This document shows, one piece after another, positions 19,900-52,599 of a stretch of 64,000 bases of DNA. Source of the DNA: Okamejei kenojei (Eukaryota). The notes below the pieces were generated by a model that was given only the letters and a program-made list of their open reading frames with translations, ran no database searches and had not been told where the DNA came from. Made by a program: the position numbers and the translations under genes. How positions within the stretch are numbered: the first letter of the stretch is position 1; each line of letters opens with the position of its first letter. The DNA is taken from positions 12,896,001 through 12,960,000 of the forward strand of contig CM069164.1 in the NCBI GenBank assembly GCA_035221665.1. Reading direction: 5' to 3'.

Positions 19900-22800
19900 A
19901 TTTTAAAGGAATTGTTGAAAGGAGTTCTGTCAAAAAAAAATAATCCGCTGCGAAAATTCGCTGCCCCAAAATCGCCGCTGCTAAATATTCAACCCTTTAA
20001 TTAGCAAAAAAAAAAAATAAAAAAAAAAATAATTTTATCAAAAAACAAAAAAAAAAAATCAAACAAGGTTATTCCAACAAATATTCATCAAATCAACAAA
20101 TTCCAAACCCCTTCGAGAGAAACAAAAAAAAAAAAAATCAAACAAAAATCAAAAAAAAAAATCGCTGCAAAATCGCTGCTTTGCATTCTGTTCCTGCAAG
20201 TTCAGCTGGGCTTACGTGTCAAGCTCTGTTTCTGTTCTGCCTGTTCTCTGCTGCTGGTTCTCTGTTCTGGGTTCTGTCACAATAACGCCTGCGTGTCCGT
20301 TGGTCTGGTTCTGCATCAGCCTTTTCCTCGGGGGTTTCTCGGTCATCATTCTGCTACGCTACATCTCTGCTGCTAATATTCAAAAAACCACATATTCACA
20401 AGTCAAATTTCAAAGAAACAAACAAAAACAAAATCACCAAAAAAAATCATACCAAAAAAACAAAAAAAAAACCCATTAGCAGAGCAAATTGTGCCATTTA
20501 AAAGTAAATTCGAAACTGATATTTTTTGATTTATTTTTTCCAATTCCCCTTCTTTGTGTAGGATCTTCCTTATCAGGAATGGGTATTTGGTTGTTTGTTT
20601 GGTTTTTTTTGTTTTGGTTATTTGCCATTTTTCTTCTTCTCTTTCTTACTTTCTATTCCTCCTACTATCTACTAAATTTCTTCTTCTTCTCAAATTCTCT
20701 TATTCTTTTTCTACTTTTTCTAATTCTTTTTTCTCTTTCCTTTCTAATATTTTCTTTTATTCTTATTCCTATTATGTTCATTATTTCTATTTCTATTTTT
20801 TTCTTCATATCTTTTCCTTCTCTTTCTTTTTTTTCTTTCTACTAATTTTTTCTATTTCGATCTTCTTTATCTTCTCATTTCTTCATATTCTAACCAATAA
20901 TAATACTGTCCACTCAGAATATCACATAAACCATCAAATAGTAGCACAAAGCAGCTTAAATTTAAAAAGCAAACTGTATAAATACAACAACCAAATATAA
21001 ATACAAATCACACACCACTTTCCTATTATTTAGTGTTCAGGGTTGGGATCTGGTGCCAACAGAGGCACTGACTTAATAAACGATCTCAAATAAACAAAAA
21101 CAAAAAACAAAAAAAACCACCCATTCATTAGGGGCTAGCTTAGTAGGCAGAACCAAACATTCCACCCTACCCACGATCCCCCGGACAGCTTACAAAATCG
21201 AACACCCATTCTACACAGTCAAAAGAAACCGTCAACGGGTAAATCAACGTCCTGAGTGAACAATAGGACCACACACCCCCACCCACAACACCATACACAA
21301 CCAAGACCAACCCCTCACCCCATCAATACATCCCCTTTCACCATCACTGAACACACACACCTCACAACTAACCAACAAAACCCAACAACCATTTCCCCCC
21401 AACTTCTTCCCCTCAGCTATTCTCCTCCTCCCCACCCCCCCCTCCGCCCAATCCTCTCCCTCTCCATCCTCATGTCCTCTCCAATCCCTCCTCTTTCCTT
21501 TTTAAACCCAATCAAAACTTGAAAACACTTTTCAAAACTATGAACAACCCAATAAAACCTCACACTTATCTCCCCCCCTCCCTTATGTACCACACCATTT
21601 ACAACTTCTTTATTCCACCCCGCTACATAACCCCTAACAATACACCCTCATCTCCTAACCCCCCCCTACACCACACCCACCATCCACAGAACCCAGGCAC
21701 AACACCCCAAACAACCATAGGACTAGTAAATACACCAAACCCTTTCCCCAAACTCACCAAATTCCCCGAATCCCCCCCCCACATCCCCCTACCCCACCCC
21801 CCACCCCTCGTCACCCCCACTACGCAAACGAATCATCATCCTAACCACACATATCAATAACACAATCAATTTCCACGTCCGCACCCACATATAATCCCCT
21901 TACACCACACCATCTCCTCAGGGACCCCCAGCCACTCTCCAAACACATTCATCGGATCTCTTATAACACGTCGGCTAAACCCAGTTATGCTTCCAGAACC
22001 GTGCCCAATAATGAAGCGCGATAATCCAATAAATATTCCCCCCCACCTCCACCCACAAACCCCCCCCCAATCACTCCCACACCCCCTAGTCATCTCACCA
22101 CAAACTAGCAGACACGTGCAGGATCCGCAGCACCTCAACAACCCCTGAAGGCCCCACCCGAATGGCCCCCCCCCCCAACACCCCCTTATAACCCTTCTGA
22201 AATGAGGGCGTGAACGGGCCTCATCAAAAAAGCGAAGCGGCACCTGGGAGGGTGAGCTCCGCCTAATCTCACGGCATCCACATCCAACCTGGGGCGAGTG
22301 GAAAAACAGGGATAACAAATAGAAAAATCCGATTTTATAAATTATTATTATAATATAAAAATATTTATATTAAAAAAAAAAAGGATATAAATATATAAAT
22401 AAATATAAAAATAAAAATGATTAATAAAAAATATAAATAAAAAAAAAATTTTTTATATTATAGAAAAAAATTATATAAGTATATTAAAAAAAATTTAAAC
22501 AAACTCATATTTTTCCGTATTTCCTATAATAATAATATGGTGGGGTGTGTTTGGGCGATTTTTTATTCCACCCACGGACCTTGGGTGGGCAGGCCAAGGA
22601 GAATAAATAATAATTCACAAACACACCATACACCAAACGACACCCACAAAAATACACACCCAACTTCAAAACATCGCCACAAAACACATCGGTATCAAAA
22701 CACCGGAGCAGCCCATGGTGGGGGTGACCCAAGCATCCCCACCCACGAACTCTCCCGCCCCTCGCGCCACCACCAGCATGTAAACCAATCCCAACCCCCC

Positions 22801-25790
22801 GACCAACAAAACACGAATCACCAAACCCCCCCCCACCACACCCCCCCCCCCCCCCTCCCCCACCCCCCATCCCACCCCCGCCCCGCCCCCCCCCCCCGAC
22901 CCCCCCCCACCAACACCACACCCCCTCCCCCCCCCCCCCATACTAAGCTGGTGTCGCCCAACATTCCAAAAGACCCCTTTCCCCTAACACAACACCCAGC
23001 ACCCACCGTACCTACCACACCCCGCAACCTCACCACACCCAGCAACCACCAACTCAGACAACCAAGCCACAACACACACCTACACACCCACATACCCCTC
23101 TGACCCCAACACAGACGCACCACCACCCACCACAAACCACCACCCCCACCACCGCGGCCTCCACACCCAACTACAACACAACAAATCATCACCTCAATAC
23201 AACCACCCACACACACAAACCAACCAAAACAGCTTCCACTCTCCGACCCAACACAACCACCCCCACCAGCACCCGCTCCCCACACTCCCCACAAACCACT
23301 TATTACACCCACCTTCCACCCACCACACTACCGCCCCCCCACACCGAAACTCACACACACAAGACCACAACACCACACACCCACTCACAAACCCATCCAC
23401 CACTCCCACCACCAAATAGCCACAGACACCCACCCATACACCCGCCACGTCCCTGACCTCTCACACAACCCCCCACACCCCACCCCACTAAGCAACTAGG
23501 ACACCTCCGGCCCTACACCCCCACCAACAACACCCACACCAACCGACAAGCACACTCCCATCCCTGCCTTCACACACACACTGAACTCCAGCCCGCCACA
23601 CACACGTGCTGATCACTACACCCCACCCCCACGCCGAGGCACAACCAACTAAACACCAACGCCGCCCGGACCTACTACAGTTCAAGATGACCCCGGTCAC
23701 CACACCCCCTTCCACGCATCGTCGATCCAAAGAATCAAGCGCGACTCCAACAACTCCCACACGCCTGCACCTTTCTCACACTCATCCACCAATAGTTAAC
23801 CTCGCAGCTGGATGCGGCAGACGTCCCGTACCAACCATACTCCCTTACCTGCTCAACTCCGCCCCTACACGTAAACACCTCAACCACCAGCCCCCACAGC
23901 TACAACATCCTATGACACGCCTACACATCTGACACCAACTACCTCTACTTCCTTAAGCAAAAGATCCCTAGCCTTACACCAAATCACAATGCAATTTTAA
24001 ACAACCCACTTAACCACTAGCCACAATTTCCCCACCAGTAATGCAACCACACACATATCAGTGACTCCTCTGGTCTACTTCCTCTCGCGCTGCTGTGGGG
24101 CATTCTTCTTCTCTTCTCTCTTCTCCCTCTTTGTCTCTCTGTCCTCTCTGCGCAGATACAGACTAAATGTTGCCTGAATAATAATGGGTGGTGTGGCATT
24201 TTCTGGTGCCATCAAAATCTATTCCAAATCCTCAATTTCCTAATTCCAATAGTTAAACTGTGTGCCAAAAAGTGCCAACAAAGTTACAACAAACACAAAA
24301 ACAAACGGTTTTTGTTGCCTCATTAAGCGCGGAAGAAGGCTTGGGAAAATAAAAAACAAGAGAGACCAAGATAAAGCCACAGAAAAGGAAATGAAAACAA
24401 AAGTTAAAGTCTGGAGGAATATTAAATGAATAATCCTGGCCTCTAGTTTTTTCAGAAGTCAATCCACACATTTACTCAGCAAATTAACACATCACTAACA
24501 ATATTTTGAATCAAAGAGCAACACAAATGCTGACAAAACTTAGTAAAATAAAACGATTCAAAAGACCCGGCCCCGGGCAGAGAAAAGATCCAAAACACTC
24601 ATGGTTTGAGGTAACGACTGGCACTCTCATTCCAGGTAGTAAAGGATATTCTTGTAGAAACACGGAACTCATGCAGAGATACGAACGACGTTGGTTTGCA
24701 AAAAAGAACAAAGAAAAACAGAGTGTTGGAGTAACTCAGTGGGTGGTTCAGAAGACGACACCCCTAAGAAGAAAAATGGATAGGTGCTGTTTTGGGTTGG
24801 GATCTTTCCTTCACACAAAAACAACCAGAATTTGTGAGGGGGGTGAGGTGGGGATGAGAAAGGATTATGTTTTCTTCAAGAAGGAGACAGGAGGGAGGAG
24901 GGTGGACGTCATGGAAAAACTGCTTCTTCCTTTCTTTTAACTGCTTCTATTTCTAAATTTGAGGTGCAAAAAAAAACATACAGTATTGGAGGCAATTCCA
25001 GTATGTTCAATTTTAAAGAGTTGGGTGAGAGAAAGTCTAAGGCAGGTGTTGGCAACCTTGTTCTGCATAGGGCCAGGACCCATGTCTGTGAGGCGGATGA
25101 TGGCGGGGGGCCACACACATCTATCTCGCCATAGTGTGACAGAAAAAAATACTTTTTTTTTTTTTTTTTTTTGTTTTTTTTTTCCCCGCATTACAAGTTT
25201 TCACTTGTTATTTTTTTTTTTTTTTTATCCAATAGTTTTTCTGCAGTTCACCTCAGGTTCCTCAAATAGTTCCCCCGCGTGCCCCGGGACCGTGAGGGTG
25301 GCTCACATTATAAGTTTATGATATGCATGTATTTTATTTTCCAGGCGGGAGGATGTTGTGTTACGGCTGGTGGGGGGCGCTGCCGTCCCCAGCCCCGACG
25401 CCCCTGCCCCCGGGGAACATGGCTTAGGTAAGCGCGCGGGCGCGCCAGTTCGTCGCTGGCGGGGTGGGACGGCCACATCCGGGCCTGCTCTGGCAGTCGG
25501 GCCCCTCCCCACCCCGCTCCGCCCGCCCTCTGCCTGCGCCCGCCAAAAACGTGCCCGGGACCAACGCTGGCTGCAGAGAGCAAAGGGGGGTTATCCCAAA
25601 CAGAGAAGAACAAAGAGAAAAAACACCACGGAAACTAACAATACAAAGCTCGCGCGCTTCCCCCAAATACCAATGCACCACAAAATAAACCCAAAAATAA
25701 CACATAAAAAAACCAAAAAAACACAGTCAGCTCGCCGTCCCGGGACTGGCTACAGTTCTCAGGTCACAAAAAACGACTTGGGGGGGGGGG
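19900..25790. other. Low-complexity, probably low-quality assembly consensus
   Basis: Abrupt A-rich, T-rich, AT-only and C/A-only blocks with inflated homopolymers and no periodic unit. Confidence 0.75.
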
Positions 25791-45917: not shown

Positions 45918-45974
45918 CCAATGGCTTTTCTTCGTCATTTGGAGAGAATCTGGAGTAAGGAGGAGGTGGAGAGT
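45918..45974 (-). CDS. SMAD6: SMAD6 coding exon 2 with PY motif, 57 nt
   Basis: ttttcag acceptor and gtaag donor. Reads (D)SPPPPYSRFSPNDEEKPL, matching SMAD6 ESPPPPYSRLSPRDEYKPL; phase 1-1. Confidence 0.95.
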
Positions 45975-48474: not shown

Positions 48475-48892
48475 CTGGGCCGTACAGCCGACTGAAGTGA
48501 TAGGGGTTGCAGCAAACAGTAGCGTGGTCCGCGCTCCTGGAAAAACCCTCGCAAGGATAAAGCCTCTTGAGTTCGAAGAGCTGCTTGAGGTCAGGCCACC
48601 TGAAAAGTCTACAAAGCAAGAGCTGGGGGGCCAGGGTCTGCTTGCCAACCCTCACTTCGTTCCTAGCCATTAGGACACAAGCAGTATGCAGTCCCCCTCT
48701 GCTCTCCACCGCCTGAGACAGCAGTTCCAAGGGCTTTTCCTTCAGTCTCTTCAGCAGCGAATGCGTTACTGACTTGAGCTCGTTTAACGATCCGGCCGGG
48801 TCGCTCCAATCCTCCGCCTCCTGCCCATTGCTCCCCGTTACCCGGCTTCGCCAAAGTCGCCGTACAAGGCCCGAACGTTTGGATCTGAACAT
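48475..48892 (-). CDS. SMAD6: SMAD6 coding exon 1 (N-terminus and MH1-like region), 418 nt
   Basis: ATG at 48892 gives [18 protein letters not shown], the SMAD6-type N-terminus (SMAD7 has MFRTKRSALV). It continues [32 protein letters not shown] and ends at a phase-1 donor G|GTGAAC (GT at 48474-48473). Confidence 0.96.
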
Positions 48893-49699: not shown

Positions 49700-49760
49700 T
49701 TACATCTCAGCCATTGGCTGCCTGCAATCATGTGGCAGTCTAGACATTTTGGCGCGGCTC
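49700..49760 (-). promoter_or_regulatory. SMAD6: SMAD6 proximal promoter module: GC element, palindromic SBE, E-box, CCAAT
   Basis: Minus strand reads CGCGCC-AAAAT-GTCTAGAC-TGC-CACATG...CCAAT (SBE 49738-49745, E-box 49729-49734, CCAAT 49713-49717), about 850 bp upstream of the ATG in CpG-retaining DNA. Confidence 0.7.
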
Positions 49761-52599
49761 AGATCGGTACTGATTATTGCGCAAATAAGGTTTCCAGTTT
49801 CTTAACTCTTAGCGCACCAGAGATTTTCTTGCAAACGTTGACCACATTTTTTTTTTTTTTTTTTTGCGTGGCAAATAAATTAATTATACAAAGAAGTAAG
49901 CCGCAAAGTGCTTATTAACACGGTTCCAGCCTCTCTCCTCCCGCTCCAGTTGGACTGGAGGATCGGGTTTTCACTGACACGCTGATCGCCCTTGAGCGCC
50001 GAGGTTCCAGCTTCACATACTCCGCTTCACTCCGCAGGTCCAACTCATTGCAACATTGGGTTCATCCCTTTCACATCCCAAAGCTTGCAACCATTTTTTT
50101 GGAAGTAATTGCAATACAGAAGTCAGAAATATGATAATGGATTAACAATGTGTATTATGATAAAGAACCAGATTTACTGGCGATATTTACTAGGTCGGGC
50201 AGTATCTGGAGAAGCAAACATTTCATGTCCCAAGCCTGGGAAATATGTGTTTGGCAGGGTGAATTTTGGTCTCAAGATACTTCCCCTTTGAAATTGCGCC
50301 AGCTGATATTTTAATGCCCCGGAGAAAAGACAGAAAATAAGGAATAGGAATAGGAAAAGAAGTCGACCACTCGGCCTTTGACAGAGTTACGTCTCATCCA
50401 AATGCAAACAGTACGGCAACTTGCTTGATGCTGCACTAGACTCAGGAGTGCAGTGTTGACTGAAGTGCTGGTTGACCTCTCAGCTCTACTGACTTATCGG
50501 TCAGAGTGAGAATTGCGGTATTGGGGCAGAGTACTCTGGGGCGCGGCAAGGAATTATGAAATCTCCACGAACACGCTGAAGCAAATTTTAAAATACGACC
50601 TAATACTTTCCCTCTTCCAGGATGAGAGATGGTGGGGCATATTGAAGAATCTCCAAAGAAGCAATCATGGAAAGTTCTTTATCTCATTATTTTGTACCTA
50701 CTACAAGTAGCCCAGTTGTCTAGCCATTTGCGATGTCATAAACAAAACTGACAACATTATTTTCTAAGATTCCCTCACCTTTTCTAGTCCCATTCCCTTC
50801 CTTTAGCCCATAGCCCTCTTAAACTGTACAAATGTCTTTTAACAATTATAATTGTACCCACCTCTACCGCTTCCTCTGGCAGCTCGTTCAATATACGTGC
50901 CACAAAGTAAGGAAAGAAAAGAGGTTTATGTCCAATTCGCTGTGACTTGAAGGAGAAATTTGAGGTAGGTAATTCTATGCACTTGGTTCCCCTGTTTTTC
51001 TAAGTTTTCAGGATGATGGACATGGGGTGCACCATCAAATAGAATATCCTGAGGGATATCATATGGTAGCTGTAGCCCTGTTATGTTGCTGGCAGAAGCA
51101 ATGATGTTTAAGGTGGTGCATGTGATATTAATAATTCATGATGTTGTCTACCATTGGCCTCCAATCTTCTTGGAAGGTACAATGCACTAATCCAGATAGC
51201 TGGACAGCATTGCATCACACTTCCTACTTGAGCCTAGTAGGTGGCAGACTTTGAAGAATGGAGAATCGGTAGCTTCCCACCTTCACATCTGTCCTTGCAG
51301 TTACAGTATTTATGTAGCTTTCTGTTCAGCGATAAACTCCCCAGGATGCTGGGATAGGATGGAGGAAGGGTAACAGCAATGTGATTGAGTGTGAAGAGAA
51401 AATGTATAAGGACACTCTAATTTTCTCGCATATAAAAAGTCTAAATATTATTTGTCACTAATCAACCTGTGAATGGATGACATCCTGGTCTTGCTGAATG
51501 CGGACACAGACTGTTTAAGTTTCTGGAAGTGGAAAATGCAGAGTATTCGCGCTACCCCAATCCCCCCTCCCCTTTCCCAATCGTCTCACACAAGTATGTG
51601 CTACTGAACCAGAACAACATTGTGATCCATCTCTCATAATCCTCACCCTATACATTTCTGGATTAAAACTGATTCTGAAATAGTGACAAATGATTTCTTA
51701 CTAGGAGTTGGTCCGTGTTGAAACTGCCTGAATTTATTTTTCTACAAGCAGAAGAGACTTTAATCCTATGAATTGTGATTGATTCAAACTTGGGTATAAA
51801 GACGAAAGACCACCAACACCACAGCACCACCCAGTTCCCACTTGTCTGATAAATAATTGAAAATCTGAAGTTGATCCAAATATGGAAATTAAATGGATTG
51901 TGACTGGTGGGTTAGTAGAGGAGGTGTCATGACTGGGCATGTTTCTAACAACGGACCCACGTTTCAATCTGCCATCTGGATCTGCTATCAAGGATTAACA
52001 CTATTGATTACTGACAAAAAAATCTGCATAATGAATGTTTATGGATGACTAAAACAAATAAAAATGTAAAAGAGGAAATGTATAACTTTCTATTGTAATA
52101 TTAGCTGTTATATTGCTGAATGTTCTAATGAATGTTAGCCTCCCAGAGGCAAACAGCTGTTTTTATTCTAATATTACAGTAAAAAATGACTCAAGCTCCA
52201 ACATTAATTAAATATCCTCATTACATGATAAACATCAATAAATATAATTTTGATACTATAAAGAACAGTTATAGGGTTTCTTCCAGTCATTACCCCACTT
52301 CTTCAAACTCTTCCTTTGATTCCTGAGATATATTTCATGCTCTCGTGCCTGTATCAATCATTGAGCCCTGAATTTATTCGTTTTGGTTTTTGTAGGAAGT
52401 CCCTCCTTAAATCCTTTTATTCTGCTTTGTCTCTGCTTGCTTTCAGTTCTGAGCATCATTGACAAGTTCAAGTTTGCTACCATACCTAATTGCTCGAATG
52501 GGTGGAGCTGAGCTATTATCTTTAACTGCTATTATCCATGTTTGTTAAGTGGGGGAATAGTTCTAAGATAAGTTATTCTGCTAACTCTTTCTCCCCACT

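What the first reader, a model, noticed from the sequence alone, without database searches (positions are those of the whole stretch)
49700..49760. SMAD6 promoter carries a SMAD7-type palindromic SBE plus E-box, fused to a BMP-type GC element
Seen: the minus strand reads CGCGCC-N5-GTCTAGAC-TGC-CACATG, with CCAAT 11 nt further on. Known: GTCTAGAC is the optimal Smad3/4 palindrome and the hallmark TGF-beta element of the mammalian SMAD7 promoter. As I recall it, that site reads GTCTAGAC-GGC-CACGTG, with the same 3-bp SBE-to-E-box spacing used in TFE3/USF-Smad synergy. GGCGCC-N5-GTCT is the Smad1/5-Smad4 BMP element, and this site differs from it by one base. Inference: this may be an ancestral inhibitory-SMAD feedback module kept in both paralogues since their duplication, making this SMAD6 responsive to both BMP and TGF-beta/activin.
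Basis: partly seen in the sequence, partly recalled or inferred. Interest (0 to 1): 0.7.

Follow-up and report, generated by a model that had tools for sequence, protein, structure and literature searches.

The report
Precambrian SMAD6/SMAD7 feedback promoter module
This 80-base stretch upstream of a ray's SMAD6 gene is a copy of an already published promoter element shared from corals to humans; a matching copy sits in front of SMAD7, so the two brakes on BMP and TGF-beta signalling likely inherited one ancient feedback switch.

Summary
The motif is real and exactly as described. It lies 853 bp upstream of the ATG of a true SMAD6. The SMAD7 gene of the same genome carries the same module 842 bp upstream of its ATG (79 columns, 71% identity). 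A loose pattern, built after seeing both, has 3 matches in 2.76 Gb, and 2 are these promoters. A metagenome scan found it upstream of coral I-Smad genes. The SMAD6 element is already published: Frith and Ni 2023, Fig. S21, shows it in human, chimaera, invertebrates and corals. What I did not find in print is its paralogy to the SMAD7 TGF-beta element, or a reading of the box they label E2F as a BMP-Smad GC half-site. The GC-to-SBE spacing is 5 bp in 16 of 16 readable published rows; SBE-to-E-box spacing is 3 or 4. Most likely a BMP-led negative-feedback promoter with a possible second TGF-beta/activin input. Function and start site were not tested here.

The parts
49777..49785 (-).
   Evidence: At -41 in SMAD7 and -42 in 6 of 6 metagenome loci, where it was not part of the search pattern; labelled CEBP in Fig. 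S21 of PMC10735318
49751..49758 (-). GC box GCCGCGCC; reads GGCGC (5GC Smad motif) on the + strand, back to back with the SBE. With the A-run it also forms an E2F-like site at 49747-49757 (+)
   Evidence: 5GC motif defined in PMC11907993; labelled E2F in Fig. S21
49746..49750 (-). 5-bp spacer between GC box and SBE
   Evidence: 5 bp in ray SMAD6, ray SMAD7 and the coral loci (fixed by the pattern there) and in 16 of 16 one-piece rows of Fig. S21 (counted by eye)
49738..49745 (.). Palindromic Smad-binding element GTCTAGAC, 853 bp upstream of the ATG
   Evidence: unchanged in 4 of 4 runs of other organism labels
49729..49734 (-). E-box CACATG, 3 bp after the SBE
   Evidence: CACGTG in ray SMAD7, CACGTG or CATGTG in the coral loci, CATATG in human SMAD6
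49713..49717 (-). CCAAT box, 28 bp after the SBE start
   Evidence: +27 in SMAD7, +29 in 6 of 6 metagenome loci, not part of the pattern; in Fig. S21
48475..48892 (-). SMAD6 coding exon 1 (ATG at 48892, MH1 region)
45918..45974 (-). SMAD6 exon 2 (PY motif); the MH2 exon lies about 7 kb beyond the window start, G000:C34:12888601-12889098

Best explanation
This is the ray copy of the inhibitory-Smad promoter module found from corals to humans, it is also present in front of SMAD7, and it likely works as a negative-feedback switch in which BMP-activated Smad1/5-Smad4 would bind the GC box and the SBE back to back across the 5-bp spacer to induce SMAD6. Shown: sequence, position, paralogy, conservation. 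Inferred: Smad1/5 on the GC half-site and Smad4 on GTCT; NF-Y (CCAAT) and a C/EBP-like factor set the basal promoter; the second half of the palindrome plus the E-box would let Smad3/4 with a bHLH-ZIP partner (TFE3/USF) add a weaker TGF-beta/activin input, as reported for SMAD7. SMAD7 has a second change in the GC box (GCGAC in ray and human), which would tilt its copy towards TGF-beta.
For: SMAD6 and SMAD7 upstream 1.5-kb regions align best at this module; 0 of 200 shuffles reach the score under two scoring schemes; blastn of 12 kb against 19 kb gives E 1.3e-5 there, the only non-coding hit under E 0.1 besides one repeat-like match 1 kb further upstream. 3 genome-wide matches, 2 at I-Smads. 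6 of 6 metagenome matches share both unsearched flanking boxes and 5 of 6 have an I-Smad exon about 300 bp downstream; the L031 protein is 94% identical to Orbicella SMAD6-like. Published alignment, called a promoter by its human position. 5-bp spacing kept in 16 of 16 readable rows while 7 of 16 lack the A-run. Reporter data: only 5-bp spacing works, +/-1 bp abolishes it, first-G-to-C keeps a reduced response. E-box mutation abolishes TAL1-SMAD3 activation of the SMAD7 promoter.
Against: No binding or expression data for this locus. The GC box is an imperfect GGCGCC, and any substitution lowered the response in the reporter; none of the GC/SBE heterocomposites there answered TGF-beta1 (they used a half SBE, not the palindrome). 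With the 27-bp core masked, the SMAD6/SMAD7 flanks alone are not significant by local alignment (79 of 200 shuffles reach the score). The same bases form a good E2F-like site. In mouse cells Smad1 was pointed out at a separate Smad6 site (BS2), and the passage does not place it at this promoter. smad6 is not named in the main text of the sea-anemone pSMAD1/5 ChIP paper (supplement not read). The four relatives are about 97% identical and share the same five changes, so one search is one weak comparison. Alignment-based discovery favours gap-free rows.
Confidence: 0.6

Rival explanations
1. The GC box is an E2F site, and the module is an E2F-Smad composite (cell-cycle control or E2F4/p107-Smad3 repression, as at MYC), not a BMP element.
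For: TTTTGGCGCGG at 49747-49757 fits the E2F consensus (recalled); Fig. S21 labels it E2F; 9 of 16 readable rows, ray SMAD7 and the coral loci have AAA after the box; E2F4/p107-Smad3 composites are known.
Against: 7 of 16 rows lose the A-run but keep the 5-bp spacing; the authors call their site predictions uncertain. Both uses could overlap.
Confidence: 0.2
2. The working unit is only SBE plus E-box, a TGF-beta/activin element as in SMAD7; BMP induction of SMAD6 comes from other sites such as the intron-1 GGCGCC composite.
For: SMAD7 promoter needs SBE and E-box; an intronic TGGCGCC-N5-GGCTC lies at 46127-46110.
Against: The E-box is the more variable part: absent in 4 of 25 published rows, spacing 3 or 4; the GC box and its spacing are steadier.
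Confidence: 0.1
3. A mostly constitutive core promoter (NF-Y, C/EBP, bHLH) whose SBE holds a Smad4-Ski repressor; signals act by de-repression.
For: Smad4-c-Ski repression was first reported on the SMAD7 promoter; palindromic SBEs mark repressive Smad sites in neural stem cells.
Against: Does not explain the fixed 5-bp GC-to-SBE geometry; compatible with the main model as its off state.
Confidence: 0.07
4. The SMAD6/SMAD7 likeness is convergence or gene conversion, not inheritance from a pre-duplication gene.
For: Short motifs can evolve twice; masked flanks are not significant alone.
Against: The five boxes keep order and near-equal offsets in both paralogues and in an outgroup gene of corals; spacers differ between paralogues, unlike recent conversion.
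Confidence: 0.03

Closest known systems
Smad6 promoter conserved segment, Frith and Ni 2023 (PMC10735318, Fig. S21)
   Same: Same boxes in the same order (CEBP, E2F-labelled GC box, Smad, E-box, CCAAT), upstream of SMAD6; the chimaera row has the same GC box, spacer, SBE and CACATG.
   Different: No SMAD7 row and no mention of SMAD7 (0 hits in main text; the 4 'smad' hits of the supplement are elsewhere accounted for); GC box read as E2F; chimaera has 4 bp before the E-box, the ray 3.
Mammalian and zebrafish SMAD7 promoter TGF-beta element (SBE plus E-box)
   Same: GTCTAGAC, 3 bp, E-box; 5 bp after a GCG.C box; conserved in vertebrates.
   Different: SMAD7 has GCGAC and CACGTG; ray SMAD6 has GCGCC and CACATG.
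ID-type BMP element GGCGCC-N5-GTCTG (and Drosophila GRCGNC-N5-GTCT)
   Same: 5-bp back-to-back geometry, GTCT orientation, the essential sixth C.
   Different: First base C not G; palindromic SBE; A-rich linker rather than the favoured G at linker positions 2-3.
Mouse Smad6 proximal BMP-responsive element (Ishida 2000)
   Same: GC-rich Smad1/5 element near the Smad6 start (title seen in reference lists; content recalled).
   Different: Paper not held, so overlap with this module is unknown.

Membership tests
Frith-Ni Smad6 promoter segment | Box order CEBP, GC/E2F, GTCTAGAC, E-box, CCAAT | tested here: met
Frith-Ni Smad6 promoter segment | Upstream of, and in the same orientation as, a Smad6 orthologue | tested here: met
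Frith-Ni Smad6 promoter segment | Lies at the transcription start | not tested
   Start site in this animal not mapped; the human counterpart is labelled promoter
SMAD7-type TGF-beta element | Perfect GTCTAGAC palindrome | tested here: met
SMAD7-type TGF-beta element | E-box 3 bp downstream | tested here: met
   spacing and CANNTG met
SMAD7-type TGF-beta element | E-box is CACGTG | tested here: not met
   CACATG; its reverse, TCATGTG, is a MiT/TFE-type site by recall only
SMAD7-type TGF-beta element | Induced by TGF-beta through Smad3/4 | not testable with these tools
   needs reporter or ChIP
ID-type BMP element | GGCGCC palindrome | tested here: not met
   CGCGCC; the variant keeps reduced activity in a published reporter
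ID-type BMP element | Exactly 5 bp to GTCT, back to back | tested here: met
ID-type BMP element | BMP-induced Smad1/5-Smad4 binding | not testable with these tools
   needs ChIP or EMSA with full complexes
Paralogous conserved non-coding element (SMAD6/SMAD7) | Significant similarity at the same place and orientation in both paralogues | tested here: met
   masked-core control not significant

The most novel reading that the evidence does not exclude
The textbook SMAD7 TGF-beta element and the SMAD6 promoter are two copies of one pre-bilaterian dual sensor (BMP half: GC box-N5-GTCT; TGF-beta half: palindrome plus E-box). After the vertebrate duplications SMAD7 broke the GC box (GCGAC) and kept CACGTG, while SMAD6 kept the GC box and let the E-box drift, so a couple of base changes explain why SMAD6 follows BMP and SMAD7 follows TGF-beta; ray SMAD6 would still read both.
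Probability: 0.3. Interest if true: 0.7.

Novelty: new member of a known kind. Interest (0 to 1): 0.42.

Why it matters
The element itself is known. The link to SMAD7 attaches two decades of functional work to one of only seven regulatory segments reported as conserved out to cnidarians, whose mechanism that paper left open. It gives a base-level, swappable test of how BMP versus TGF-beta feedback was split between SMAD6 and SMAD7, and suggests that Smad self-inhibition was wired before corals and bilaterians parted.

Tried and rejected
Palindrome alone as evidence: rejected, chance level. Gene is a mislabelled SMAD7 or the third I-Smad: rejected (28 rows, none dropped; the SMAD6 rows form no starred clade of their own under midpoint rooting). 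Module at the third I-Smad (C868): not found in 9.9 kb upstream or 9.9 kb downstream; a lone palindrome at L024:7029 has no matching flanks; a farther promoter is not excluded. Flanks without the core: not significant. Intron-1 homology of SMAD6 and SMAD7: best alignment 16 of 200 shuffles, not at the motif, and the SMAD7 stretch ran past exon 2 because my cut failed. No RNA holder listed on record; start site not mapped. Earlier scan notes: none. Protein Atlas gave no answer. Papers not held: Ishida 2000, Karaulanov 2004, Miyazawa and Miyazono 2017, Hua 1999, Denissova 2000. Searches for a printed SMAD6/SMAD7 promoter paralogy showed no such title or abstract (listings only, most subscription journals missing). 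PMC5636977, PMC2879523, PMC4605309, PMC3203580 and PMC6996360 passages gave no SMAD6 promoter element sequence.

Full report
Observation. The minus strand carries CGCGCC (49756-49751), 5 bp, GTCTAGAC (49745-49738), 3 bp, CACATG (49734-49729), 11 bp, CCAAT (49717-49713). The palindrome by itself is at chance level in 64 kb (1 seen, 0.53 expected). It sits 853 bp upstream of an ATG at 48892.

Gene. Exon 1 spans 48892-48475 and exon 2 45974-45918; the MH2 exon is about 7 kb beyond the window. Best named hits are SMAD6b of a ray, a catshark and a chimaera, so the animal is a cartilaginous fish, likely a ray. The genome holds three I-Smad-like genes among 8 exon-1 matches and 21 MH2 matches. In an MH2 tree of 28 rows the C1 gene groups with SMAD7 (99/100), the C868 gene with two shark SMAD6-like proteins (98/100), and the window gene lies outside both, 97% identical to ray SMAD6b.

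Paralogy. SMAD7 (L002) has GTCTAGAC 842 bp before its ATG. The best local alignment of the two 1.5-kb upstream regions falls on this module, and 0 of 200 dinucleotide shuffles reach it under either scoring. Blastn gives 79 columns, 70.9%, E 1.3e-5. Shared parts are a TTTGCG.AA box at -40/-41, GCCGCG.C, the 5-bp spacer, the palindrome, an E-box 3 bp on, and CCAAT at +28/+27. A pattern built from both has 3 matches genome-wide; the third lacks both flanking boxes. Against: with the 27-bp core masked the flanks are not significant by local alignment (79 of 200). The third I-Smad lacks the module in 9.9 kb upstream.

Conservation. Contigs of 4 runs with 4 other organism labels cover the stretch at about 97% identity. 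All show the same five substitutions in 49712-49790, none in the GC box, SBE, E-box or CCAAT; this is one low-power comparison. One scan of metagenome contigs gave 6 matches. All 6 have the two unsearched flanking boxes (-42, +29), and 5 have an I-Smad exon about 300 bp downstream. The L031 protein is 94% identical to Orbicella faveolata SMAD6-like; the others are near-identical to it, so these are coral host contigs of about three variants, not six independent cases.

Prior art. Frith and Ni 2023 (PMC10735318; main text parts 1-3 of 5 and supplement parts 1, 7, 8 read) list the Smad6 promoter among 25 segments conserved across bilaterians. Fig. S21 has 25 rows: human, chimaera, lancelet, other deuterostomes, protostomes and two corals, with boxes labelled CEBP, E2F, Smad, E-box, CCAAT. 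Human SMAD6 reads GCCGCC, 5 bp, GTCTAGAC, 3 bp, CATATG. So the element is known, also in mammals. SMAD7 is not mentioned. The PDF text scrambles blocks. Counting by eye: 16 rows show the GC-box/SBE junction in one piece and all 16 have 5 bp; 8 are split but fit 5; 1 is unreadable. Seven of the 16 lack the A-run that an E2F site needs (consensus recalled). After the SBE, 13 rows have an E-box at 3 bp, 6 at 4 bp, 4 have none, 2 are split.

Mechanism. Jatzlau 2025 (PMC11907993; abstract, Results and one Discussion section read) found that BMP response needs two Smad motifs back to back at exactly 5 bp, that the sixth C of GGCGCC is essential, and that changing the first G to C or A keeps a reduced response. 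The ray site is that variant, and its + strand reads GGCGC, a 5GC motif. The most rigid feature of the ancient module is therefore BMP-type syntax. I infer Smad1/5-Smad4 binding and feedback induction of SMAD6. The same paper says one palindromic SBE is a half-unit for Smad2/3, so a TGF-beta response would need the E-box partner. For SMAD7, passages show the natural palindrome (PMC3683938), loss of activation on E-box mutation (PMC5889486), conservation to zebrafish (PMC4321984) and TFE3 cooperation (PMC11063908). SMAD7 carries GCGAC in ray and human, two changes from GGCGCC, which would weaken BMP input. The E2F reading remains a real rival and may coexist. The sea-anemone ChIP paper does not name smad6 in its main text (PMC10849676, passages); its supplement was not read and may bear on this.

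Verdict. A real and deeply conserved element, already published for SMAD6. Dual ligand response and the start site remain untested. New member of a known kind; interest 0.42.

Noticed in passing
window 46127-46110 (-); L026:1438-1455: Intron 1 of SMAD6 has TGGCGCC, 5 bp, GGCTC about 135 bp before exon 2; SMAD7 has a 16-of-18 similar motif about 180 bp before its exon 2. A post-hoc pattern matches only these two places in the genome, but intron alignment is not significant. Possibly a second paralogous BMP element; an intronic SMAD7 BMP element is known (named I-BRE).
   Followed up: partly
G000:C868 (L003, L010, L023, L024): A third inhibitory Smad, grouping with shark SMAD6-like proteins, lacks the module in 9.9 kb upstream; likely a retained ohnologue.
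   Followed up: partly
window 49659-49648 (-); L002:556-567: A 12-bp identical word about 85-100 bp downstream of the SBE in both SMAD6 and SMAD7, perhaps near the start site; score within shuffle range.
   Followed up: partly
window 48220-48180 (-): CACGTG followed by GGCGCC and GTCT (2-bp gap) in intron 1, about 260-290 bp after exon 1.
   Followed up: no
window 49030-49000 (-): Pyrimidine run ending in CAG about 110 bp before the ATG; could be a splice acceptor of a 5' UTR intron.
   Followed up: no
L031:1795-1820 and 1949-1956: The coral loci have an extra AGAC just before the GC box, and L031 has a second GTCTAGAC about 140 bp downstream.
   Followed up: no
window 20000-24000: Strongly skewed low-complexity block (GC skew to -0.71) inside a SMAD6 intron; may be noisy assembly.
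   Followed up: no
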